64,000 nt of DNA from Bacteroidales bacterium (GTDB taxonomy: Bacteria > Bacteroidota > Bacteroidia > Bacteroidales > TTA-H9), in the NCBI GenBank assembly GCA_049969475.1, contig JBMFOU010000005.1:2034-66033 (forward strand), in the 5' to 3' direction. Position 1 is the first letter of the stretch. Each line of letters starts with the position of its first letter. The notes beneath the pieces were generated by a model, which made no database searches, had not been told where the DNA came from, and saw nothing but the letters and a program-made list of their open reading frames with translations. A program made the translations under genes and the position numbers. Positions 35,715-45,479 of this stretch are shown here, in pieces.

Positions 35715-36314
35715 ATGAGAATAGACAGGCAAAAGGCTATCCAACTGATTGATAAATATTTCCCTAAGAGTCATCCGGCACGTGATTATTACATGGTCCA
35801 TGTGGAAGCAGTGGCACATGCTGCCCGGCTCATACTCACTCACAATGCCCATCTAAACCTCGATCCGGATAAAATTGAAGCTATGGCTCTGCTTCATGAT
35901 ATAGGCATTGTAAAAGTGCATGCTCCCGAAATCGGGTGCAATGGAGAATTTCCATACATCTGCCATGGTTACCTGGGCAGAGAAATACTTGAAAAGGAAG
36001 GACTTTTTGAAATTGCTCCTATATGTGAAAGGCACACAGGTGTTGGAATAACTATTCAGGATATCGACAACCAGAAGCTTCCCCTGCCCAGGAGGGATAT
36101 GATTCCACTTACAGCTGAAGAGCGGTTGATTTGTTATGCAGATAAATTTTTCTCAAAATCGGCTCAACAACCCGACCAACCCAAACCCTTGGAGAAAATT
36201 CTCAAGAGTTTGGCTAAATACGGACCTGATAAGCCGGAAAAGTTCATGGAATTGGCCCGTGAATTCGGGTACGATTACATTTATGAGAACTTCCCAAGCT
36301 ATAGGCAAAAATAA
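35715..36314 (+). CDS. HD-domain phosphohydrolase
   Basis: 199 aa. H...HD (ALLHDIG) and later His/Asp ligands (CERHTGVG, CYADKF). Confidence 0.8.
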   Translation: MRIDRQKAIQLIDKYFPKSHPARDYYMVHVEAVAHAARLILTHNAHLNLDPDKIEAMALLHDIGIVKVHAPEIGCNGEFPYICHGYLGREILEKEGLFEIAPICERHTGVGITIQDIDNQKLPLPRRDMIPLTAEERLICYADKFFSKSAQQPDQPKPLEKILKSLAKYGPDKPEKFMELAREFGYDYIYENFPSYRQK

Positions 36315-36378
36315 TTTGCCTCTGGTGTGGAGCTATGTTAACCAGGATTCAAGAAGGGGTGAATAAAACCATTTTTGC

Positions 36379-37512
36379 CTAATCCCACTCCAGACAATAA
36401 AGCCTCAGGCCTCCAAACCACAGTCGCTTCTCCTCAAGCCAGGCTGAAGAACGAATGATGTCGGGAGTGGAGTATTGCCAGAGCTGTTGTCCATCGCTGA
36501 GTTTAAGGGCATACAAAATTCCATCGTCGCAGCCAAACAAGACCCTATTTCCCATAATACTTGGCGAAGAATGAATGGCTCTTTTAAACTTGGTTTTCCA
36601 CAGAAGTCTGCCGGTATTTGGTTCGAGGCAAGTTAATTCGCCCTTTCGATTTCCGAAAACACAATACGATTCACAAACGGCTGCCGAGGAGAAAATAGCT
36701 CCTTCGCTGACATAATTCCATGCTACGGAACCATCCTCTACCTTCAGGCTAAAAAAATGGCCGCGGGTATCACCTACTAAAACCTGTCGCTGATGAATAG
36801 CCGCCGTAGCATGAACAGGCCCCTGCATTTGTTTTTTCCAAATCACGCTACCTGTGTGGGCATCGAGTGCATATAAAAAACCGTCCCTACTACCTATGAA
36901 TACTTTGCCTTCAAACAAAGTAGGACTGGATATCATCCAGCTATCCGTGGTCAATTTCCAGACTAACTTTCCAGTAAACGCATCCAGCGCATAAATACTG
37001 CCATCCATACCTGCCAGATAAACGAGTCCTCCCTGCAGGGCCGGGGAAGAAAAAATCCAGTCGGCCGTGGGAAATTTCCAACGCAAATGTCCCGTATCTG
37101 CATTCAGGCAATAGAAATTGTGATCAAAGCATCCAAAATAAACCGAGGCGTTGCTCACCAGTGGGGTTGAGCGAACCTCGGCCTGCGTTTTAAACCGCCA
37201 GAGTTCTTGACCAGTATTTGCATCAAGACAGAAAAGGGCTTTACTATCAGCCCCAAAAAATACCTTACCCTGAGCGACTACCGGAGAGGAATGCACAGTG
37301 TAAAGGTCATAGAAAGAATAGGCTAAACGAGGCGTGGTGAAAGATTCCTTTCCTTCGAAACATCCTTTTCTCATAGCACTGCCCCTGAACATAGGTAAGG
37401 TTTCAGGCTGGCGCTCCATCGCCCTGATTAGAACCTTTTCCGTAATCTGCACCAGGTTATTGGCATGAAAAAGATCCAGTTCATAAGGCTTTTTCTCCAG
37501 TTTCCCGCTCAT
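36379..37512 (-). CDS. PQQ-like 8-bladed beta-propeller protein without a signal peptide
   Basis: The ORF-track start at 37518 is TTG, so I used the ATG at 37512. An alternative ATG at 37419 would remove the overlap with the upstream gene. Eight repeats of the form G-x-V-(Y/F)-x-G-x-x-D-G-x-(L/F)-Y-A-L-D-x-x-T-G-x-x-x-W. Confidence 0.8.
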   Translation of the reverse strand: MSGKLEKKPYELDLFHANNLVQITEKVLIRAMERQPETLPMFRGSAMRKGCFEGKESFTTPRLAYSFYDLYTVHSSPVVAQGKVFFGADSKALFCLDANTGQELWRFKTQAEVRSTPLVSNASVYFGCFDHNFYCLNADTGHLRWKFPTADWIFSSPALQGGLVYLAGMDGSIYALDAFTGKLVWKLTTDSWMISSPTLFEGKVFIGSRDGFLYALDAHTGSVIWKKQMQGPVHATAAIHQRQVLVGDTRGHFFSLKVEDGSVAWNYVSEGAIFSSAAVCESYCVFGNRKGELTCLEPNTGRLLWKTKFKRAIHSSPSIMGNRVLFGCDDGILYALKLSDGQQLWQYSTPDIIRSSAWLEEKRLWFGGLRLYCLEWD

Positions 37513-38410
37513 ATTCAAGCTTTAAGGCATCATATTCTTGTTGAAATTTTTTTCTTAACCCGGCAAAATAAGCATCGAAATCCGAGATCTGGCGCAGCGT
37601 CTGGTATACAGGGCTTGATATTAGTTCCCTAATTTCATCTTCTACTCTCCTGATTTCTGCATCCAGTCTGCGGATACGGGCTTCGAGTAATGCTGCTTCA
37701 CTCCGCTCATCATCAGAGACTTGAGTAAAAATATTTTGAGAGAGCATGCGGTAGATTTCTTCCACCTTGCGAATATCGTTGAATAAATAGGCGTTATTTA
37801 ATTCCATGAACCACTGCCGGGCTTCTTCGCGCAATTCCTCCGATACCATATCAGGATGGCACCGTTTACTGGCCTCCCGGTATAGTTTTCTCAGGCGATT
37901 TCGCTCTTCCCGGCTGATCTCATGAATGGGTCTTTCCTTTGAGATGTGTTTCCTTTGCTGTTCAAAAGAGGCGTAATCTTTTTTGGCCTGACGATAAGCC
38001 TCCGCATGTCGTTGATCCTTTTGTTGTCGCAGGTAAAAAAGGTCCATCTGCAACCTGAGAATATCGCCCAACAGCATGCCGAGTTCACTGTTGTGTTTAT
38101 GTCTGAAAAAGTTGATTTGTCTCTGAATTTCTGCTTTTTTATTGAGAGCAACAGAAAGATGCGTACTTAAAAGTGACACACTGGTTTTCAAACCCACAAG
38201 CAAGGGTTCCCCCCGGGAAGGCAGAGACAAGTGGTGAATATGACTTTCGAGAAGAGCCTCCAAAGTTTCAAAATCACGGATTTGCAATAAATGCAGCAAT
38301 TTTTCCTTTAAATCTCCCTTATCTTCTTCCAGGGCTGCCACTTCTTCACCCGCTTCCTTCAACTGGCGTTGAGAAACCAGGAACTGAATAGTTTTCAATC
38401 GTTTAATCAT
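37481..38410 (-). CDS. coiled-coil J-domain protein
   Basis: The ORF-track start at 38455 is TTG; the ATG at 38410 (MIKRLK) overlaps the upstream stop as ATGATTAA. The J-domain core is RLRKLYREASKRCHPDMVSEELREEARQWFMELNNAY, with the HPD tripeptide. Confidence 0.75.
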   Translation of the reverse strand: MIKRLKTIQFLVSQRQLKEAGEEVAALEEDKGDLKEKLLHLLQIRDFETLEALLESHIHHLSLPSRGEPLLVGLKTSVSLLSTHLSVALNKKAEIQRQINFFRHKHNSELGMLLGDILRLQMDLFYLRQQKDQRHAEAYRQAKKDYASFEQQRKHISKERPIHEISREERNRLRKLYREASKRCHPDMVSEELREEARQWFMELNNAYLFNDIRKVEEIYRMLSQNIFTQVSDDERSEAALLEARIRRLDAEIRRVEDEIRELISSPVYQTLRQISDFDAYFAGLRKKFQQEYDALKLEYERETGEKAL

Positions 38411-40061
38411 TCGAAGCTCTTTTAAAAACGCATTCTCCTTCAATCCATGTTTCAAGGATGCGAGCTTTAAGAACTTCTTCGCGGGATGCAGTTCTTAGAT
38501 CGGTATCGAGCACAACAAAATCCGCTTTCTTACCCTGAGTAATGCTACCTATTTCATTCTCAAGAAATGAAGCCCTGGCGGCCCAAAGGGTCATACCCCA
38601 AAGGGTTTGATCGCGGGATAGGGCATTTTCTGGTTGAAAACCGCCCCGGGGATAGCCCTCGGAATCGGTGCGAAAGACGGCTGCATGGAAAGTGAGAAAC
38701 GGATTTACTTCCTCAATGGGAAAATCGGTTCCCAAAGGCATCCAGCCATTTTGCTGAAGCAAGTTCTGGTAAGCATATGCATGGCGAATACGATCACCCA
38801 GGCGGGCTGCAGCCCAACTCATATCGGATGTGGCATGTGTAGGTTGAACCGAAGGAATGACGGAAAACTTGCCGAACTTTGAGAGATCATCCGGGTCCAC
38901 TACCTGAGCGTGCTCAATGCGCCAGCGCAAATCATTTGGGCCTTTGAGAAATTCACCATAAATATTCAAAACCAGTCGATTGGCTGAGTCGCCGATAGCA
39001 TGCGTGCAGACCTGGTAACCTGCCTCCAGCGCCCGCTGGCAAATCCTTCGGATTTCATCAGGTGAAGTAACCGCTATTCCATAAGTTTGAGGAAAATCGC
39101 TATAAGGCCTGAGCAAAAGAGCTCCCCGGCTGCCTAACGCTCCATCTGCGTAAAGCTTAATGGCTGTAACCGACAACCGGCCGTTGAAATATTTCCCTTG
39201 AGGTAAAAATTCATGCAAGGTCTCCTCTGATGGGTCGAGCATGGCGGATACTCGAATTTTTAGTTTGCCTTCCCGCTGCATCTCTTCCATCACGCGTATT
39301 ACCTGGGCGTCGAGACCTGCGTCGCATACGGCGGTCAGCCCATTGCGCAGACACTCTTCCTGAGCGGTAAGAAGTGACCCCTCCAGCTCCTGCCGGCTCA
39401 TGGCGGGAATGAGGGAACGAACGGGTTCCATAGCATTGTCAATCAAAACCCCCGTTGGTTTTCCCCCGGCTATCATCATCTGTCCCCCGTCCTGTTGGGT
39501 TTTCCTTTCAAGCCCGGCTCTTCTCAGGGCTTCATCACTTACCAGCGCGGCATGTCCATCAATTCGTACTAGATAGACAGGGACATCAGGGAAAGCTTTG
39601 TTTAATAATTGATTATCAGGAAACTGGCCTCCAGGGAAAAGATTCTGGTCCCATCCCCTACCCAGCAACCATTCCGCTTTATGCGTTTTTCTGAATTCCT
39701 GTAATCTATCCACCACCTCCTCCATGGAACGGCAACCTCTAAGATCAGCCCAACGATACATCATTTCACCGAGTCCCTTGAAATGACAATGGGCATCCAT
39801 AAACCCCGGGTATAGGGATGCACCCTGTAAATCAATTATTTTTTCCGCATGAAATTTCCCTTTGATCTCTTCATTACTTCCAATCCCCACAAACTTTCCA
39901 TCCTTCACAGCCAGGGCATTGGCATCTATAAGGGTTGAATCAGCGGTAAAAATCCTGGCATTCCACACAATGAAATCTGCCGGTTGTTTCATTGTACAAG
40001 ATTGAAAAAGAATAATTAACAAGAACAGGCCAAGGGGCCCTGTGCTTTGTTTCATGGTCAT
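38403..40061 (-). CDS. amidohydrolase-family (YtcJ-like) metal hydrolase, lipoprotein
   Basis: 552 aa. Lipobox LFQSC, metal ligands (GFMDAHCHF ... IEHAQV ... HAIGD) and TDFP near the C-terminus. ATGA overlap with the upstream EEP gene. Confidence 0.85.
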   Translation of the reverse strand: MTMKQSTGPLGLFLLIILFQSCTMKQPADFIVWNARIFTADSTLIDANALAVKDGKFVGIGSNEEIKGKFHAEKIIDLQGASLYPGFMDAHCHFKGLGEMMYRWADLRGCRSMEEVVDRLQEFRKTHKAEWLLGRGWDQNLFPGGQFPDNQLLNKAFPDVPVYLVRIDGHAALVSDEALRRAGLERKTQQDGGQMMIAGGKPTGVLIDNAMEPVRSLIPAMSRQELEGSLLTAQEECLRNGLTAVCDAGLDAQVIRVMEEMQREGKLKIRVSAMLDPSEETLHEFLPQGKYFNGRLSVTAIKLYADGALGSRGALLLRPYSDFPQTYGIAVTSPDEIRRICQRALEAGYQVCTHAIGDSANRLVLNIYGEFLKGPNDLRWRIEHAQVVDPDDLSKFGKFSVIPSVQPTHATSDMSWAAARLGDRIRHAYAYQNLLQQNGWMPLGTDFPIEEVNPFLTFHAAVFRTDSEGYPRGGFQPENALSRDQTLWGMTLWAARASFLENEIGSITQGKKADFVVLDTDLRTASREEVLKARILETWIEGECVFKRASND

Positions 40062-41542
40062 TTCGATTTTGAGTCGACAATTTTAAAATCGGCCACCAGG
40101 GGCAGATGGTCGGAACAACGCTTCATAATGTTTCCATCGAGCCCGAGGGCCGAAAGAGTATCTACATCCAGCATAGAGGTATTCAATATAAAGGAATGAA
40201 CAGGATGAAGGTTCACCGGCGAATAAAAAATATAATCGAGACGGGCTGGCGAAAAGAGCTTTTGTGGATCTCTCCAGGTGATGGCAACCGGGTGATCCAC
40301 CTGTATGGGCACCAGATCTCGGAGCACGGGTTTCTGGCTAAGGTGCAGACTGCCGGTGGTAAGGTTACGATAAGGTATATCGGAGCCCACAATATTGAAA
40401 TCGCCCGCCAGTATGACCGGCATCTTGAGGTTTCCGTCGTTGAAAGTGGCTACCTTATTGATAATAGCCATAAGGGCCTGGGTTTCCATTATCCGCTCCT
40501 GGTCGAAGTAGCAGCAGCTCAGATGACAACTGAAAAACATGATGTCGCGTTTCCCTATCCTAAGTCGAAAGCCGGCAATATTTTCGTTGGCTCCGGGCCG
40601 CACCGGAATAATTTCTTCGATTTTAAAACGGGAGGCCAGAATAACTCCTTCACCGTATTTAACTACATGCCAGGTACCGGGCAATAGTTCTGAAAGGGTT
40701 TGCTTTACTTCATCTGCCGTACTTTTCCAGCATTCAATTAAATTGATGATGTCTGGGTTAAGAAGACGAATGACTCTGTTAAAATCATATTGGCGAATGG
40801 AATCGGTAATCCCATCATTAAAAACATTCCAGCTTAGCAATCTGAAACCATCTTCAGGCTTAGGAGTAATAGCAGGCAGTTTCAGAGAATTTCGACAATC
40901 GCGCTGAATTACGTAGGTAAAGGTTTTTCCCTTGTCAGGAGCCATGTCGCCCCCTTCGGTTCGGTCCCATAGCAATATTTTTACAGTATCTGAGCTAAAC
41001 AGCTTTTTCCCGGGTCGGGGCTCTGCCTCAAGCGAAATCGTGACTTCATATTCCGACGAAGTGAATGGAGGTACATACAAAAAACCCAACCCAAGATGTC
41101 TAACAAAATCAGCCACTTCCGAGTCTTTGTAGTAGCCCCAGCGCTGACCAAACTGCCATCCCAACTCAGCTCCTATCCCGTTGATGAAATAGCCCGTATG
41201 AGGATCATTGTCTGTGTCCAGTTCTAGAAATAATGTATTGTTTTCGCCCAAGGGATAGGGTTTCTGAAGAATCAATCTGAAATACAAATTTTTATCGTCA
41301 TTGGTTACCTGAAGACCCACGATGTCAATATCTTTTCCATCCCCAGGAGCATCCGTCAGAGTGCTAACCCGGTTGTCGTTATTAACTGCTGACTTCCAAT
41401 CGGGCCATTCATGGGTGAATCCATCCACGACCACTGGCAAACATAATTTCTCGTTTTGGGCATAAATGGTCTGAATGAGCAGGAGAAAATACAGAAGTAT
41501 CTTCATCCTAAAGAAATGAGAATTGCGAAAATTTTTAGCCAT
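40058..41542 (-). CDS. secreted endonuclease/exonuclease/phosphatase (EEP) family protein with an N-terminal extra domain
   Basis: 494 aa. Signal peptide (alternative ATG at 41506 gives MKILLYFLLLIQTIYAQ). The C-terminal ~260 aa carry EEP motifs (LLSWNV, LIECW, GDFN, SDHLP). Confidence 0.8.
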   Translation of the reverse strand: MAKNFRNSHFFRMKILLYFLLLIQTIYAQNEKLCLPVVVDGFTHEWPDWKSAVNNDNRVSTLTDAPGDGKDIDIVGLQVTNDDKNLYFRLILQKPYPLGENNTLFLELDTDNDPHTGYFINGIGAELGWQFGQRWGYYKDSEVADFVRHLGLGFLYVPPFTSSEYEVTISLEAEPRPGKKLFSSDTVKILLWDRTEGGDMAPDKGKTFTYVIQRDCRNSLKLPAITPKPEDGFRLLSWNVFNDGITDSIRQYDFNRVIRLLNPDIINLIECWKSTADEVKQTLSELLPGTWHVVKYGEGVILASRFKIEEIIPVRPGANENIAGFRLRIGKRDIMFFSCHLSCCYFDQERIMETQALMAIINKVATFNDGNLKMPVILAGDFNIVGSDIPYRNLTTGSLHLSQKPVLRDLVPIQVDHPVAITWRDPQKLFSPARLDYIFYSPVNLHPVHSFILNTSMLDVDTLSALGLDGNIMKRCSDHLPLVADFKIVDSKSK

Positions 41543-42596
41543 GACGAAGAAAACGACTAAGGAATTTCAGACTTTCAAATGTAATGATTTTGCTATTTCC
41601 ATGCAAAACAAAGGAACCATCGCTTTCGGCAGAAATCACCCAGGCTGGAGCTTCACCAGGGATGGCATGCCGCAGGCAGTGCCTCAGCATAAACAATTCC
41701 CAAGCTGGGTGGGGTGTACCTGCCCAATGAATTTTCACAGGTTTAAAGTCCTTGCTCTCTGGTTCAAAATCCTGGATTTGTGAATTATATACCCAGTCTG
41801 CCCGTTGAAAATAATCAGGAATGATTCCTGTGCCGACCGCCTCCTCGGGCGAAATCATGATAAAAGGTCGCTGATGCCCGGCCACAATCAATTCGTCACA
41901 TAGGCGGAGCGCAAGGGCCACATCGTGTGTGGAAAGGAGTATAGTTTTGTTTTGCGATCGAGTGAGCTGCAGCAACATGTGCATCAATTCAGAACGGCTA
42001 GGAAAATCGAGAAAGGCAGAAGGTTCATCAAGCAAAATGAGGGGTGTTTGTTGCGTAAGTGCCGAGGCAATCCATACTTTTTGCTTTTCTCCGTCGCTTA
42101 GCCGATCAAAAAATTTATGAGCTAGGTGACCTATTCCCACCAAATGCAATGATTGCATAACCCATTCTTTATCGGCCTTCGACATGCGCCCCCAAAATCC
42201 ACTATAAGGATATCGACCCGAGGCTGCCACCTCGAAAGCAGTCATCGAAGGCATGGCTGTGCCGGTAGGAAAAACTACGGCTACTTTTGAAGCCAATTCT
42301 CTACGGCTAAAATGCTGTAGTGTCTTACCCTGCATAAAAATCTCTCCGCCAAGAGGGGGCAGAAGTCCTGCCAGGGTACGTATGAGGGTTGATTTTCCGC
42401 AGCCATTGGGTCCTATTAAGCAGTACAGATAACCCTGTTTCAAATCCAGGTTTATTTGTTCCGATACCACGAAACGTGGGCTGCTATAGCCAATGGCTAA
42501 CTCATGAATAACAACAATATCCTTTATATCAGTAAGAGAAGGCGGTTGTTCAAAGGGGATAGTCATTGCGGGGAGGATTGTTACAGATTTCTCCAT
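41535..42596 (-). CDS. ABC transporter ATP-binding protein (FecE/BtuD type) with a C-terminal extension of ~100 aa
   Basis: The ORF-track entry extends to 42926, but the first ~110 codons overlap the permease gene in another frame. I chose the ATG at 42596 (MEKSV); the ATG at 42566 is an alternative. Walker A GPNGCGKST, signature LSDGEKQKV, Walker B LILLDEPS, H-loop STHD. Confidence 0.9.
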   Translation of the reverse strand: MEKSVTILPAMTIPFEQPPSLTDIKDIVVIHELAIGYSSPRFVVSEQINLDLKQGYLYCLIGPNGCGKSTLIRTLAGLLPPLGGEIFMQGKTLQHFSRRELASKVAVVFPTGTAMPSMTAFEVAASGRYPYSGFWGRMSKADKEWVMQSLHLVGIGHLAHKFFDRLSDGEKQKVWIASALTQQTPLILLDEPSAFLDFPSRSELMHMLLQLTRSQNKTILLSTHDVALALRLCDELIVAGHQRPFIMISPEEAVGTGIIPDYFQRADWVYNSQIQDFEPESKDFKPVKIHWAGTPHPAWELFMLRHCLRHAIPGEAPAWVISAESDGSFVLHGNSKIITFESLKFLSRFLRHG

Positions 42597-43630
42597 TTCC
42601 AAAGAAAAACGATAACCACCGGAGCCCCCACCAGGGCAGTAAGGGCGTTCACGGGAAGAGCACCCCCAAAAATTGGTAAGCGCGAAACGAGGTGTACAGC
42701 GAGGGCCAGCCCTGCTCCCAGCAAGGCAGATAATGGAATGAGTACAAAATGGTCGGCTGAGGCGGTAAGAGATCGGGCTAGATGAGGAACAGCCAACCCG
42801 ATAAAGGCTATAGGACCGCAAAAAGCTGTTACAACTGCCGTAAGAAAACCTGAAACCCAAATAATGTTCATTCTTGTACGGCGTACATTCAAACCCAACG
42901 CTGCGGCTGTTGTTTCTCCCAACCACAACATATTAAGTGGTTTAACTAAGAAAAAGGAAGCCACCAATGCTAACGCCACCGATGACCCTAAAATGCCCAG
43001 ATGGTTACGACTCACGGCTGAAAAACTTCCAAGTCCCCAAACCACATAATATTTCAAATCGTCAGAAAGACTAAAGAACTTTAACAAGCTGATGGCTGAA
43101 AAACTCAGGTAACCTATCATCACACCTAATATGAGCAAGCGGGTGGCTGATTGCATGCGAAGGGCAAAGCTCAATATAACAAGCATGACCCCCATAGCTC
43201 CTAAGAACGAAGCTGCAATGATTCCCAATTGTCCCTGAAAACCGGAGTTAATCAGAGAAAAACCCAGGAGTTTCCCTCCGGTAAGAGTTAAAAGAGCCAC
43301 GCCCAGGCCGGCCCCGGAACTAACCCCCAAAATAGAAGGATCGGCCAGGGGATTTCGAAAAAGGGTCTGCATTAGCAATCCTCCGACAGCAAGGGCCGCT
43401 CCGGCCCATAAAGCAGCCATGGCTCCAGGAAACCGAATCTCTTGTAAAATCATTCGTTGCGTTTCGTTTCCACCACCCTCCATGGCTTCCATCAGTGCCT
43501 TCCAACCCAAATTCACAGTCCCAACTTTCAAATTGAAAAAGAAAAGTACCACGACAACGCTCGTAAGACTGCCAAAAAGCAACCATCGATATGACTTGCG
43601 CCGTCGGATGGGAGGATGAACAGTACTCAT
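42581..43630 (-). CDS. FecCD/BtuC-family ABC permease
   Basis: 349 aa, about 9-10 TM segments. Blocks typical of iron-siderophore/B12 permeases (RNPLADPSILGVSSGAGLG, GPIAFIGLAVPH). Confidence 0.9.
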   Translation of the reverse strand: MSTVHPPIRRRKSYRWLLFGSLTSVVVVLFFFNLKVGTVNLGWKALMEAMEGGGNETQRMILQEIRFPGAMAALWAGAALAVGGLLMQTLFRNPLADPSILGVSSGAGLGVALLTLTGGKLLGFSLINSGFQGQLGIIAASFLGAMGVMLVILSFALRMQSATRLLILGVMIGYLSFSAISLLKFFSLSDDLKYYVVWGLGSFSAVSRNHLGILGSSVALALVASFFLVKPLNMLWLGETTAAALGLNVRRTRMNIIWVSGFLTAVVTAFCGPIAFIGLAVPHLARSLTASADHFVLIPLSALLGAGLALAVHLVSRLPIFGGALPVNALTALVGAPVVIVFLWKWRNL

Positions 43631-44772
43631 GGTAACAGATGATAAAAATAGGGCTGGTAATCAGAATCAAGCCCTGGATGCGTTAGGTGAATCAAGTCAG
43701 AGAGAACTAGATCTGGACGAGCATTGCCTACTTCGTATAAGGGAACTTCCGATACGTTGCAGTACAATATTTTACTGTTGGTAAAAACGGGTAAAAGTTT
43801 GTATCTGGGGTCAAGGTTGAGCAAGTCGCTACGGTTGTTCAGGTTCTTATTGGCCAGCAATAGCCGCCAATATTCTGCCTTTGATGAACGACTCACTATT
43901 TCTTCAAAACTCACAGGTATACTGCCAGGTCCGGGCTTATCTGAAAAAACATAATTCAATCCCGCATCTCTGTAAAGCTCTGCCATATAACTCTGAGATG
44001 CCGATACATACCAGGTATCACCCTGCAGCATTCCATCTATAATTGAGGGCTTATCGTTTATGCTGAGGGCTAACTCTTTCATTCGAAGATAATTAGTTTT
44101 TATTTCTTTGAAAATACTATCGGCTTCATGCTCCTTGCCTAAAAAAATACCGATGAACCGAATCCATTCCGCTCTGCCCAGTGGGGTTGATTCCAGGTAA
44201 TCGGCCAGGGGAAGGGCAACGATTCCTACACTTCTAAAACGTTCAAAATCAGTACCAGGGAATAATGAAAAGAAAGCTGCGTCAGGATCGCAGGCAATGA
44301 GCTGCTCATTGAAGATTCGATCTCCCTGCCCAATTTCAACGATCAAACCTTTTTTTATACGTTTCTTGACTGTTGGATTTATAATAAAGGCCGAATCAGA
44401 AACACCAGTTAGCCTTTGCATGCATCCCAGGCTCTGCAAGGAACTGAAAAGAGTGGATGAGGTGGTAGCCAGCGTTCTGATGGGTTGATAAACGAGCGTG
44501 TAGCCCTTAGGAACTTTATAGTTTTCCTTTCGTGATGCCAGAATATATCGGCCCCACACCTGGTTAGTGTCCCAGGGATTCAAAACGATGACTGCGCGAT
44601 GTCCATCCCTGGTTCCCACCTTAAAGAGCCGGGCATGCTGGGGTGAATAAGCAGTATCAGGGATAAAATTCGGGTCTACGTCGGAAGGACTCTTGTTTCC
44701 GCAGGCATTTAAAAGTGCCAGGGAAATAATGAACATCCCCGTTATCCATAAATTAATCGAAAAGCTCTTCAT
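43627..44772 (-). CDS. periplasmic-binding-protein (BtuF/FhuD-like) lipoprotein
   Basis: The ORF-track start at 44823 is GTG, so I used the ATG at 44772 (MKSFSINLW...LLNAC lipobox). The ABC class III SBP pattern is present. ATGA overlap with the permease start. Confidence 0.85.
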   Translation of the reverse strand: MKSFSINLWITGMFIISLALLNACGNKSPSDVDPNFIPDTAYSPQHARLFKVGTRDGHRAVIVLNPWDTNQVWGRYILASRKENYKVPKGYTLVYQPIRTLATTSSTLFSSLQSLGCMQRLTGVSDSAFIINPTVKKRIKKGLIVEIGQGDRIFNEQLIACDPDAAFFSLFPGTDFERFRSVGIVALPLADYLESTPLGRAEWIRFIGIFLGKEHEADSIFKEIKTNYLRMKELALSINDKPSIIDGMLQGDTWYVSASQSYMAELYRDAGLNYVFSDKPGPGSIPVSFEEIVSRSSKAEYWRLLLANKNLNNRSDLLNLDPRYKLLPVFTNSKILYCNVSEVPLYEVGNARPDLVLSDLIHLTHPGLDSDYQPYFYHLLP

Positions 44773-45127
44773 CGCGTTCGAGTAACAGAATGGAATGATG
44801 GGAGACCACAAAATATTTCTCACCGTCTATCACCACCTCTACGGCTCCTTTTTGCATAAAAACGGCCAGGTCGCCGGGACGAGCCTGCAGAGGGATATAC
44901 ATGGGCTGTTCTTCATGCTTTTTCCAGGGCTCACCATCACTCTCACGAGGTGAAGGTATGGGGTAGCCAGGCCCGGTTTTGATGACATAACCCGTCTGTA
45001 TCTCTTCTTTTTCAGAATAACCGGGAGGCAATACCAACCCACCCCGTGTAGTAGCTTTGGCAGTCTTGAGTTTGATAAGCACCCTGTCTCCTACTACAAT
45101 AATATTTTTTAAGCGTTCAGAGATCAT
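44753..45127 (-). CDS. GroES/Cpn10-like protein (paralog with an insertion; no groEL adjacent)
   Basis: ATG at 45127 (MISERLKNIIVVGDRVLIKLKTAKATTRGGLVLP...), matching the GroES pattern (DRVLIK...T.GGI.LP). 124 aa against about 95 for canonical GroES. The upstream part of the 169-aa ORF-track entry contains the promoter. Confidence 0.75.
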   Translation of the reverse strand: MISERLKNIIVVGDRVLIKLKTAKATTRGGLVLPPGYSEKEEIQTGYVIKTGPGYPIPSPRESDGEPWKKHEEQPMYIPLQARPGDLAVFMQKGAVEVVIDGEKYFVVSHHSILLLERDEELFD

Positions 45128-45143
45128 GCAGTTAAAGTTTCTG

Positions 45144-45151
45144 CAAAAATA
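45144..45151 (-). promoter_or_regulatory. -7 promoter box (TATTTTTG, minus strand) for the eight-gene operon
   Basis: Reverse complement of CAAAAATA, 17 nt upstream of ATG 45127. Confidence 0.45.
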
Positions 45152-45233: not shown

Positions 45234-45479
45234 ATGCGACTTAAATTTCTGCATACACCCAAACCCCGGGGCTATAGTTATCAGCCGGTTTATTACAATC
45301 CAGAACAGGAAAAACCAACTGTTGAAAAAAAAGAAACCGAGGGCAGCGACCGCTTGCGACGTGAGATGGAAGCACGATGGAGGGCCAATCGGCGAAAAAA
45401 CCGGGCAAGCACTATCCAGCTTGCGGTTTACCTCCTAATAATACTTGCAGTGCTCTACTTTATTTTCTTTGTGTGGTAA
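45234..45479 (+). CDS. small tail-anchored membrane protein, translationally coupled to mutL
   Basis: 81 aa. Charged N-terminal region, then one C-terminal TM (IQLAVYLLIILAVLYFIFFVW). Its stop overlaps the mutL start as TAATG. Confidence 0.5.
   Translation: MRLKFLHTPKPRGYSYQPVYYNPEQEKPTVEKKETEGSDRLRREMEARWRANRRKNRASTIQLAVYLLIILAVLYFIFFVW

What the first reader, a model, noticed from the sequence alone, without database searches (positions are those of the whole stretch)
36379..45151. Eight-gene, largely overlapping operon bracketed by two co-chaperone-like modules with no chaperone
From one -7 box (45144-45151) the minus strand encodes eight genes. In order: a GroES-like protein, a BtuF-like binding lipoprotein, a FecCD permease, an ATPase, a secreted EEP hydrolase, a lipoprotein amidohydrolase, a J-domain protein and a cytoplasmic PQQ-like propeller. 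With the starts I chose, the junctions are overlaps of 20, 4 (ATGA), 16, 8, 4 (ATGA), 8 and 32 nt. Alternative ATGs would turn three of them into gaps of 14-61 nt. The set combines a type II ABC importer of the B12/heme/siderophore class with two exported hydrolases. It also has a Cpn10-like protein at the front and a J-domain protein at the back, although neither GroEL nor an Hsp70 is encoded here. I found no cobalamin riboswitch or Fur-box-like repeat in the 106-nt leader. I know of no described pathway with this composition. Tight coupling argues for functional linkage, for example import plus processing of a phosphorylated or amidated metallophore-like substrate with dedicated folding or assembly factors.
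Basis: partly seen in the sequence, partly recalled or inferred. Interest (0 to 1): 0.62.

Follow-up and report, generated by a model that had tools for sequence, protein, structure and literature searches.

The report
Composite importer operon with borrowed co-chaperones
The eight tightly packed genes are real and are kept together in one group of uncultured Bacteroidales, but relatives carry them in many partial combinations, so this is a patchwork of separable modules (nutrient importer, two exported hydrolases, a phylum-wide extra GroES, a J-domain/propeller pair) and not one new pathway with its own folding factors.

Summary
All eight domain calls, the gene order and the seven overlaps (20, 4, 16, 8, 4, 8, 32 nt) are correct. 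The -7 box upstream of the first gene is conserved in relatives. The same eight genes, in the same order and with junction gaps of at most about 53 nt (mostly overlaps or gaps under 15 nt), occur in at least eight other metagenome-assembled genomes from three or more genera, even where the flanks differ.

- **GroES-like protein:** a single-copy Cpn10 paralog found in 202 of 301 sampled Bacteroidota genomes, in many gene contexts.
- **J-domain protein:** a patchy family (12 of 401 genomes of the class). It is paired with the propeller in five other Bacteroidales families and fused to a PLD nuclease elsewhere.
- **Sister genera of the same family:** one has importer, EEP and amidohydrolase with no GroES-like gene and no J/propeller pair. 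Another has GroES-like, importer and amidohydrolase without EEP. A third has six genes without J/propeller.
- **Chaperones:** groES-groEL, a second groES and dnaK are encoded elsewhere in this genome.

Most likely reading: a composite operon holding a metal-chelate-class ABC importer with two exported hydrolases, plus two co-chaperone modules that use the housekeeping GroEL and DnaK. The substrate is unknown. Interest is moderate.

The parts
45144..45151 (-). Bacteroidota-type -7 promoter box (TATTTTTG), 16 nt upstream of the g1 ATG
   Evidence: Pattern match. A TAnnTTTG box lies about 16-65 nt upstream of the orthologous start in 11 of 13 related loci.
44753..45127 (-). g1: 124-aa Cpn10/GroES paralog with a roughly 20-residue insertion in the roof hairpin and a short C-terminal extension
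   Evidence: Pfam Cpn10, 49 bits. NCBIfam GroES models score far below their cut-offs. AF2 model pLDDT 70.7, with loop 23-33 disordered. The top 35 Foldseek hits are all GroES/Cpn10/gp31. Alignment with canonical GroES.
43627..44772 (-). g2: lipoprotein substrate-binding protein of the Peripla_BP_2 class (siderophore/heme/B12 type)
   Evidence: Pfam, 65 bits. Lipobox LLNAC conserved. The ortholog profile best matches PDB 4HN9, 4M7O and FeuA 2PHZ.
42581..43630 (-). g3: FecCD-family permease of a type II ABC importer
   Evidence: Pfam FecCD, 244 bits. The best NCBIfam hit is BtuC at 194 bits, below the cut-off of 334.
41535..42596 (-). g4: ABC ATPase with an unassigned C-terminal extension of about 100 aa
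   Evidence: Pfam ABC_tran, 105 bits. The extension has no Pfam hit even at E<=5. It is poorly conserved or absent in genus g5 (coverage 0.68-0.78).
41576..41583 (-). Possible internal -7 box (TACATTTG), 34 nt upstream of the EEP start and inside the ATPase 3' end
   Evidence: A TAnnTTTG box lies 12-54 nt upstream of the EEP start in 5 of 8 complete loci and at no other internal junction. It lies in coding sequence, so this is a lead only.
40058..41542 (-). g5: exported two-domain EEP phosphoesterase (N-terminal beta-rich domain plus EEP catalytic domain)
   Evidence: Pfam, 64 bits. The conserved EEP motifs are invariant in orthologs, which I read as the catalytic residues. AF2 pLDDT 89.8. The closest folds are TDP2, PDE12, ANGEL2, nocturnin and CNOT6L. 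Distant full-length homologs carry a T9SS sorting domain.
38403..40061 (-). g6: YtcJ-like Amidohydro_3 metallohydrolase, lipoprotein
   Evidence: Pfam, 310 bits. Matches PDB 3IGH and 3ICJ, both uncharacterised. Lipobox conserved in 10 orthologs, and the HxH motif (DAHCH) is present in 8 of the 10 N-termini shown. Orthologs at about 50% identity in 65 of 151 sampled genomes of the order.
37481..38410 (-). g7: cytoplasmic coiled-coil protein with a central J-domain (HPD at residues 185-187)
   Evidence: Pfam DnaJ, 24 bits. HPD invariant. The profile hits J-domain structures at E=7.7e-7. The family has 313 representative clusters at E<=1e-30.
36379..37518 (-). g8: cytoplasmic PQQ-like beta-propeller. 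Its start overlaps g7 by 32-38 nt
   Evidence: Pfam PF13570, 245 bits, and PQQ_2, 173 bits. No signal peptide in 7 orthologs. A J homolog sits directly upstream in four further Bacteroidales families where the neighbourhood could be read.
36303..36380 (.). Spacer between the convergent g8 and the HD-domain gene, bounded by the inverted repeat AGGCAAAAAT / ATTTTTGCCT. It is a possible two-way terminator
   Evidence: Sequence. The fold z-score is only -1.0, so this is not significant.

Best explanation
This is a composite operon specific to one lineage. It was assembled in a conserved chromosomal slot next to mutL and is transcribed from a conserved housekeeping-type promoter in front of the Cpn10-like gene. 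It holds three kinds of module whose distributions across genomes are independent.

1. **Working core.** A type II (FecCD/BtuCD-class) ABC importer with a lipoprotein binding protein, plus one or two exported hydrolases: a YtcJ-like amidohydrolase lipoprotein and, in this family, an EEP phosphoesterase of the TDP2/CCR4 branch. I infer that the hydrolases trim a compound in the periplasm or at the surface, and that the importer takes up a metal-chelate or cofactor-like product.
2. **Third GroES paralog.** It is conserved across Bacteroidota. It keeps the Cpn10 fold and a flexible loop with the hydrophobic L-x-L triplet, so it most likely caps the housekeeping GroEL encoded elsewhere.
3. **J-domain and propeller pair.** These are two overlapping genes for a coiled-coil J-domain protein and a cytoplasmic PQQ-like propeller. 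The J-domain with its intact HPD motif most likely recruits the single housekeeping DnaK, and the propeller acts as the partner that binds the client or target.

Shown: the anatomy, the conservation of the block, the separability of the modules, and the presence of GroEL and DnaK elsewhere in the genome. Inferred: co-transcription, the substrate class, and which chaperone partners are used.
For: **Block conserved:** all eight genes occur in the same order in L015, L017-L020, L033 and L036. Junctions are short, and the block survives where the flanks differ.

**Promoter:** the box position is conserved. There is no riboswitch, and terminator-like sites do not exceed chance (16 found against 11.4 +/- 4.2 expected).

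**Modules separable:**
- Cpn10, ABC and amidohydrolase without EEP, J or propeller: L021-L025.
- Cpn10 and amidohydrolase without ABC: G130, G137, G134, G066, G129.
- Amidohydrolase, J and propeller without Cpn10, ABC or EEP: G053, G153.
- J and propeller alone: G070, G078.
- Within the family: g6 lacks Cpn10 and J/propeller, g4 lacks EEP and J/propeller, g3 lacks J/propeller.

**Cpn10 paralog:** present in 58 of 151 genomes sampled across the order and 202 of 301 genomes of the phylum, one copy each. It also lies in unrelated contexts. Fold and loop features.

**Partner chaperones:** groESL, a second groES and dnaK are present elsewhere.

**Importer class:**

**Hydrolases:** export signals are conserved. 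The EEP motifs are invariant and the fold is TDP2/CCR4-like.
Against: - Co-transcription is therefore inferred from spacing and conservation only.
- A -7-like box in front of the EEP gene in 5 of 8 loci may split the unit.
- The block stayed intact through at least two flank rearrangements. Amidohydrolase, J and propeller are also adjacent in three separate families. Both facts could reflect a tighter functional link than 'co-housed modules'.
- In the order-wide sample, only about 6 of about 58 genomes with the amidohydrolase ortholog have FecCD next to it. Even the importer-hydrolase link is therefore a minority arrangement.
- No ligand, GroEL binding or DnaK stimulation was tested.
Confidence: 0.55

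Rival explanations
1. One reading: one dedicated pathway. The Cpn10-like protein and the J/propeller pair would be specific folding or assembly factors for the importer and its two exported hydrolases, which together process and take up a phosphorylated or amidated metallophore.
For: - There are seven consecutive overlaps.
- The whole block is retained as a unit in three or more genera despite changed flanks.
- The Cpn10-like gene heads FecCD-type importer plus amidohydrolase clusters in other families, including one (L025) whose FecCD and ATPase are only 29-31% identical and whose binding protein gave no tblastn hit. That could mean an independent recruitment.
- Amidohydrolase, J and propeller are adjacent in three families.
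Against: - Genera of the same family keep the importer and hydrolases with no Cpn10-like gene anywhere in the genome and no J/propeller (G007, G011).
- The Cpn10 paralog is in two thirds of Bacteroidota genomes, mostly away from any such cluster.
- The J family is patchy and sits in unrelated contexts or is fused to PLD nucleases.
- The three exported proteins fold outside the cytoplasm, where GroES and J-proteins do not act.
Confidence: 0.12
2. A corrinoid (cobamide) salvage and remodelling locus. The BtuFCD-like importer would take up corrinoids, and the amidohydrolase and phosphodiesterase would cut the amide and phosphodiester links of the nucleotide loop. This would be functionally analogous to CbiZ and CbiR (my own knowledge of those enzymes).
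For: - The permease's best named relative is BtuC (194 bits).
- The binding-protein profile reaches BtuF structures at E about 6e-6.
- The combination of amide hydrolase, phosphodiesterase and type II importer fits the chemistry.
- The source genomes are labelled as Bacteroidales metagenome-assembled genomes. That they come from anaerobic-digester or wastewater habitats, where cobamides are abundant, is my recollection of those MAG series and is not shown by any tool output.
Against: - There is no cobalamin riboswitch or any other Rfam hit in the locus.
- BtuC and BtuD equivalog cut-offs are not met.
- The binding protein is closer to siderophore-type binders than to BtuF.
- Neither hydrolase belongs to the CbiZ or CbiR family, and both are exported, whereas known remodelling is cytoplasmic.
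- There is no BtuB-type receptor in the operon.
Confidence: 0.08
3. Gene packing with no functional meaning. The eight genes share a strand and have short junctions only because the genome is compact and this slot next to mutL tolerates insertions. The products have nothing to do with one another, and their expression is not coordinated beyond read-through.
For: - Every module occurs without the others.
- Short gaps and overlaps are common elsewhere in the window (for example 31064/31066, 48136/48160, 50205).
- The Cpn10-like and amidohydrolase genes co-occur only slightly more often than chance. My count is 28 shared genomes against about 23 expected.
Against: - The complete block survived at least two rearrangements of its flanks.
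- Junction gaps are at most about 53 nt in every complete locus, most of them overlaps or gaps under 15 nt, at 36-80% protein identity.
- The same sub-combinations recur in different families: Cpn10-ABC-amidohydrolase, amidohydrolase-J-propeller, and the overlap of the J and propeller genes.
Confidence: 0.2

Closest known systems
Type II ABC importers for metal chelates (BtuCD-F, FecBCDE, FhuBCD, HmuTUV)
   Same: It has a FecCD-family permease, a Peripla_BP_2 binding protein and a FecE/BtuD-like ATPase encoded side by side.
   Different: - No equivalog cut-off is met.
- There is no riboswitch, and I did not test for a Fur-type operator.
- There is no TonB-dependent receptor in the operon.
- The binding protein has an extra N-terminal segment of about 70 aa, and the ATPase has an unassigned C-terminal domain of about 100 aa.
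- Two exported hydrolases are embedded in the operon.
GroES / Cpn10 co-chaperonin, including extra or phage copies such as T4 gp31
   Same: It has the Cpn10 Pfam domain, the predicted Cpn10 fold, and a disordered mobile loop with a conserved hydrophobic triplet (GGLVLPPG against GGIVLTG in E. coli).
   Different: - It is 124 aa, with a nearly invariant insertion of about 20 residues (GPGYPIPxPxExDxEPWKK) in the roof hairpin and a conserved C-terminal LLERDEELF tail.
- It is never next to groEL in the loci I inspected.
- It fails all NCBIfam GroES equivalog cut-offs (43 against 96-142 bits).
- It is a third copy, beside canonical groES-groEL and a solo groES.
Specialised bacterial J-domain proteins that direct Hsp70 to particular clients or sites (DjlA, CbpA, HscB, DjlB/DjlC; my own knowledge)
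   Same: It has a J-domain with an intact HPD motif set in a protein without the DnaJ zinc-finger or C-terminal domains. This implies that it recruits an Hsp70 encoded elsewhere.
   Different: - The J-domain is central and flanked by coiled coils.
- The gene is tightly paired with a cytoplasmic PQQ-like propeller in Bacteroidales.
- Other members are fused to a PLD-type nuclease domain (PADLOC DrmC-like hit).
- I found no described member.
YtcJ-like Amidohydro_3 metallohydrolases (PDB 3IGH, 3ICJ)
   Same: It gives a full-length match (E=2e-60 to 3IGH) and has the HxH metal motif.
   Different: It is a lipoprotein, and the structural relatives are themselves uncharacterised, so no substrate can be transferred.
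EEP phosphodiesterases of the TDP2 / CCR4 / PDE12 / nocturnin branch
   Same: It has the catalytic-domain fold and invariant copies of the conserved EEP motifs.
   Different: - It is exported and carries an unassigned N-terminal beta-rich domain of about 190 aa.
- Distant homologs are T9SS-secreted.
- The substrate is unknown.

Membership tests
Cpn10/GroES co-chaperonin | Match to the Cpn10 domain model above the curated cut-off | tested here: met
   PF00166 scores 49.2 bits against a cut-off of 21.1.
Cpn10/GroES co-chaperonin | Cpn10 beta-barrel fold | tested here: met
   AF2 model pLDDT 70.7. Foldseek ranks 1-35 are all Cpn10/GroES/gp31, with the best at E=1.8e-7.
Cpn10/GroES co-chaperonin | Flexible mobile loop carrying a hydrophobic triplet that binds GroEL | tested here: met
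   Residues 23-33 have pLDDT below 50. L31, L33, P34 and G36 are invariant in 57 homologs. The loop aligns with GGIVLTG of E. coli GroES. Binding itself was not tested.
Cpn10/GroES co-chaperonin | Orthology to canonical GroES (NCBIfam equivalog score) | tested here: not met
   The best score is 43 bits against a cut-off of 136. It is a distinct paralog, since the genome has canonical groES at 118 bits.
Cpn10/GroES co-chaperonin | Forms a heptameric lid on GroEL | not testable with these tools
   This needs biochemistry or a multimer model.
Type II ABC importer (BtuCD/FecCDE class) | FecCD permease, Peripla_BP_2 binding protein and ABC ATPase in one cluster | tested here: met
   Scores are 244, 65 and 105 bits, all above the cut-offs.
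Vitamin B12 importer BtuFCD | Equivalog-level match to BtuC/BtuD, and a cobalamin riboswitch | tested here: not met
   BtuC scores 194 bits against a cut-off of 334. There is no Rfam hit at E<=1.
J-domain protein (Hsp40 class) | HPD tripeptide between helices II and III | tested here: met
   H185, P186 and D187 are invariant or nearly so in alignments of 5, 7 and 28 sequences.
J-domain protein (Hsp40 class) | Match to the DnaJ domain model above the curated cut-off | tested here: inconclusive
   The window protein scores 24.1 bits against a cut-off of 27.8. Many homologs carry a precomputed PF00226 hit. The family profile hits J-domain structures at E=7.7e-7.
J-domain protein (Hsp40 class) | Stimulates the ATPase of an Hsp70 | not testable with these tools
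   One DnaK gene is present in the genome.
PQQ-dependent dehydrogenase / BamB | Equivalog-level score, and export (signal peptide or lipobox) | tested here: not met
   The PQQ alcohol dehydrogenase model scores 103 against 480, and BamB TIGR03300 scores 176 against 285. There is no signal peptide in 7 orthologs. It shares the propeller fold class only.
EEP (endonuclease/exonuclease/phosphatase) superfamily | Domain match plus the conserved EEP metal-binding and catalytic motifs | tested here: met
   PF03372 scores 64 bits. N239, E270, H340, D381, N383, D436, D478 and H479 are invariant in 7 orthologs, and I read these as the catalytic residues from my knowledge of EEP motifs.
Amidohydro_3 (YtcJ-like) metallohydrolase | Full-length domain match and the HxH metal motif | tested here: met
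   310 bits over 74-546. The DAHCH motif is present in 8 of the 10 ortholog N-termini shown. In L025 it reads DAHAH, which keeps HxH, and in L043 the displayed sequence ends before the motif.
Single operon (one transcription unit) | Continuous transcript from one promoter | not testable with these tools
Indirect support comes from junctions of -32 to -4 nt and a conserved upstream -7 box. A possible internal box lies before g5.

The most novel reading that the evidence does not exclude
The J-domain protein and its cytoplasmic PQQ-like propeller would form an undescribed adaptor that recruits DnaK and works together with the exported YtcJ-like amidohydrolase. These three genes are adjacent in three separate Bacteroidales families. 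The roof-insertion GroES paralog would be a second, client-specialised lid for GroEL. On this reading the locus would be a small proteostasis-plus-uptake unit and not a patchwork.
Probability: 0.15. Interest if true: 0.6.

Novelty: new variant of a known kind. Interest (0 to 1): 0.4.

Why it matters
The eight-gene cluster looks exotic at first sight, but it resolves into recognisable parts, so it should not be catalogued as a new pathway.

Two of the parts are still genuinely uncharacterised and easy to test:
- A third GroES paralog with a nearly invariant roof insertion is present in about two thirds of sampled Bacteroidota genomes. If it caps GroEL, it would change the folding chamber for a whole phylum.
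- The J-domain/propeller gene pair belongs to a patchy family that is elsewhere fused to PLD nucleases.

The importer-plus-exported-hydrolase core is also a candidate for an unknown nutrient-scavenging route in Bacteroidales, possibly those of anaerobic digesters if my recollection of the MAG sources is right.

Tried and rejected
- **Sigma-70 promoter and terminator scan:** it gave no more hits than shuffled sequence and does not suit Bacteroidota.
- **Riboswitch or other RNA:** none at E<=1.
- **Heat-shock control:** there is no CIRCE element in the genome. A TGGCAY-N5-YTGA motif shared by the groES and dnaK upstream regions is absent from the g1 upstream region and occurs 33 times genome-wide, which I judge to be about chance level. 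No conclusion is possible.
- **Ligand from the binding protein:** a single-sequence PDB search found nothing. The profile search placed it only in the broad siderophore/heme/B12 class.
- **Defence-system reading of J/propeller:** no PADLOC hit for any of the five locus proteins tested (Cpn10-like, EEP, amidohydrolase, J, propeller). Only the PLD domain of a fused relative resembles DrmC.
- **Unassigned domains:** no Pfam family for the ATPase C-terminal extension, the EEP N-terminal domain or the J-protein N-terminal half.
- **Literature:** five full-text searches found no description of the GroES paralog, the J/propeller pair or the cluster.
- **DUF6580 membrane protein:** it recurs near these genes in other genomes but is absent from this genome.
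- **Remnants of a deleted importer** between Cpn10 and the amidohydrolase in G130 and G137: none found.

Full report
**1. What is there**

The minus strand between 36379 and 45127 holds eight consecutive ORFs.
- Cpn10, 49 bits
- Peripla_BP_2, 65 bits
- FecCD, 244 bits
- ABC_tran, 105 bits
- Exo_endo_phos, 64 bits
- Amidohydro_3, 310 bits
- DnaJ, 24 bits (just under the cut-off of 27.8)
- PQQ-like propeller, PF13570 at 245 bits

The alternative ATGs fall at +16, +14, +28 and +61. The TATTTTTG box at 45144-45151 is present. No Rfam family matches the region at E<=1.

Two details need correcting:
- The '106-nt leader' is really the whole divergent spacer to the small ORF in front of mutL. The box ends 16 nt before the ATG.
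- The chaperones are missing only from the locus. The genome has groES-groEL on C30, a second solo groES on C1, and one dnaK on C6.

**2. The block is conserved, but narrowly**

The window belongs to an uncultured Bacteroidales metagenome-assembled genome (record titles).

- The J-domain protein is found in 7 of 12 other genomes of the same family, and in no other family among the 40 relatives searched except for one marginal hit (E=3.4e-4).
- tblastn with all eight proteins shows the complete order g1-g8 in L015, L017, L018, L019 and L020 (genera g1, g2, g5) and in two further metagenomic contigs, L033 and L036. L016 holds the distal part on a short contig.
- In L019 and L020 the flanks differ, and in L033 the mutL cluster lies on the other side. 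The block therefore moved or was retained as a unit.
- Junction gaps are at most about 53 nt in every complete locus, and most are overlaps or gaps under 15 nt. The J/propeller overlap (26-62 nt) is always present.
- A TAnnTTTG box sits about 16-65 nt upstream of the Cpn10-like start in 11 of 13 loci, including distant ones.

**3. The block breaks into modules**

Other Bacteroidales show partial sets at the same slot, which lies divergent from a conserved cluster of small ORF, mutL, rhomboid, rhomboid, EEP(DUF8431) and DUF2400.

| Genes present | Where |
|---|---|
| Cpn10, binding protein, FecCD, ATPase, amidohydrolase | L021-L025. In L025 the FecCD and ATPase are only 29-31% identical to ours and the binding protein gave no tblastn hit. 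|
| Cpn10, amidohydrolase (no importer) | G130, G137, G134, G066, G129 |
| Amidohydrolase, J, propeller, then two thioredoxin/AhpC-like genes | G053, G153 |
| J, propeller only | G070, G078 |

Sister genera within the window's own family:

| Genus | Genomes | Genes present |
|---|---|---|
| g3 | G004 (locus read); G009 and G012 inferred from the same 4.7-kb Cpn10-to-amidohydrolase spacing | Cpn10, ABC, EEP, amidohydrolase. No J. |
| g4 | G005 | Cpn10, ABC, amidohydrolase |
| g6 | G007, G011 | ABC, EEP, amidohydrolase. No Cpn10-like gene anywhere in the genome, and no J. |

Both 'brackets' are therefore dispensable for the importer/hydrolase core, and the core is dispensable for them.

In the order-wide sample the amidohydrolase ortholog is in 65 of 151 genomes. 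A FecCD gene lies next to it in only about six. The Cpn10-like and amidohydrolase genes co-occur only slightly more often than expected. My count is 28 shared genomes against about 23 expected.

**4. The parts**

- **Cpn10-like protein.**
  - Distribution: more than 1,800 database clusters, many named 'co-chaperone GroES family protein'. It is present as a single copy in 58 of 151 genomes sampled across the order and in 202 of 301 genomes across the phylum. It also lies in unrelated neighbourhoods.
  - Sequence: it is the most conserved gene of the block, at 69-81% identity where the J protein is 36-43%. Against canonical GroES it has an insertion of about 20 residues in the roof hairpin and a conserved C-terminal tail. 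It keeps the loop motif GGLxLPPG.
  - Structure: the AF2 model (pLDDT 70.7) has a disordered loop at 23-33, and its top 35 structural matches are all Cpn10 proteins.
- **Importer.** It is of the FecCD/BtuCD class, but no NCBIfam equivalog cut-off is met. A profile of the binding protein reaches siderophore-type binders best (4HN9, 4M7O, FeuA) and BtuF more weakly.
- **EEP protein.** It has a signal peptide and invariant copies of the conserved EEP motifs. The confident model (pLDDT 89.8) has a catalytic domain closest to TDP2, PDE12, ANGEL2, nocturnin and CNOT6L. Distant full-length homologs end in a T9SS sorting domain.
- **Amidohydrolase.** It is a conserved lipoprotein with the HxH motif. 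Its nearest structures are uncharacterised.
- **J protein.**
  - Features: the HPD motif is invariant, and the family profile hits J-domain structures.
  - Distribution: the family has 313 representative clusters at E<=1e-30 but is patchy, in 12 of 401 genomes of the class.
  - Variants: the one long variant I inspected (P0145, 460 aa) carries an N-terminal PLD-type nuclease domain, and many other family members have the same length. In Chitinophagaceae the protein sits in unrelated contexts without a propeller.
- **Propeller.** It has no signal peptide and fails the quinoprotein and BamB equivalog cut-offs.

**5. Most likely mechanism**

I read the locus as a composite operon. The core is an uptake unit. 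The exported amidohydrolase, and in this family the exported phosphoesterase too, act outside the cytoplasm. The lipoprotein binding protein hands a metal-chelate or cofactor-like compound to the FecCD/ATPase importer.

The Cpn10 paralog, with its own conserved promoter, is a phylum-wide gene that happens to head the unit here. From its fold and loop, it most likely acts on the housekeeping GroEL. The J/propeller pair is an accessory two-gene module appended at the 3' end, and its J-domain most likely recruits the single DnaK.

The anatomy, the conservation and the separability are shown. Co-transcription, the substrate class and the chaperone partners are inferred. Confidence is 0.55.

The rivals are:
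- a corrinoid salvage and remodelling locus (0.08)
- packing without functional meaning (0.20)

**6. Comparison and novelty**

Each part belongs to a known superfamily, and the core resembles ordinary type II importer operons. What is not described, as far as five full-text searches could tell, is the roof-insertion GroES paralog, the J/propeller pair and this particular combination. I class the finding as a new variant of a known kind, of moderate interest.

**7. Limits**

- I had no signal-peptide predictor, so export was judged from the N-terminal sequences.
- All relatives are metagenome-assembled genomes, some of them fragmented.
- A -7-like box 12-54 nt upstream of the EEP start in 5 of 8 loci lies in coding sequence and may not be a promoter.

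Noticed in passing
window 45234-45479 (+); L021:9669-9929, L025:9536-9832, L033:15646-16047: A small ORF (81-133 codons) directly upstream of mutL is called in several distant Bacteroidales loci. The small-ORF/mutL arrangement is therefore conserved and not peculiar to this genome.
   Followed up: partly
L029:948-2330 (P0145), and other 440-476 aa hits: Many relatives of the J-domain coiled-coil protein are about 460 aa long. In the ones inspected, an N-terminal PLDc_2 nuclease-like domain (with a PADLOC DrmC-like hit) is fused to the same J module. Enterobacter relatives of 389 aa are labelled 'DNA repair protein'.
   Followed up: partly
L037:1837-2934 (-) and L039:12802-13984 (+): In two other Bacteroidales families the amidohydrolase/J/propeller trio is followed by two thioredoxin-like or AhpC/TSA-family genes in the same order.
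   Followed up: partly
L039:8442-8999 (-), L043:8833-9387 (+), L034:6995-7519, L035:16025-16549: A DUF6580 membrane protein of about 180 aa recurs next to or near the Cpn10-like or amidohydrolase genes in other genomes. It has no homolog in this genome (tblastn).
   Followed up: yes
L025:10716-13391: In one complete genome the slot between the Cpn10-like gene and the amidohydrolase holds a different FecCD-type importer. Its FecCD and ATPase are 29-31% identical to ours and its 276-aa binding protein gave no tblastn hit. This may mean a separate recruitment or strong divergence.
   Followed up: no
window 41576-41583 (-): A TACATTTG -7-like box lies 34 nt upstream of the EEP start, inside the ATPase gene. 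An equivalent box is present in L015, L018, L033 and L036, and at no other internal junction.
   Followed up: partly
genome contig C1:189042-189329 (outside the window): A second solo 95-aa GroES (Cpn10, 84 bits) lies downstream of a 195-aa ORF whose product I did not identify. The genome therefore has three Cpn10-family genes.
   Followed up: no
genome C30:3895 and C6:67956 (outside the window): The upstream regions of canonical groES and of dnaK share a TTTGGCAYAAT...YTGA motif that is absent upstream of the Cpn10-like gene. The looser pattern occurs 33 times genome-wide, so its significance is unclear.
   Followed up: partly
window 41538-41840 (-): The C-terminal extension of about 100 aa on the ABC ATPase has no Pfam match even at E<=5. 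It is poorly conserved or missing in genus g5 orthologs.
   Followed up: partly
window 36303-36380: The 64-nt spacer between the convergent propeller and HD-domain genes is bounded by the inverted repeat AGGCAAAAAT/ATTTTTGCCT. The fold is not significantly more stable than shuffled sequence (z = -1.0).
   Followed up: yes
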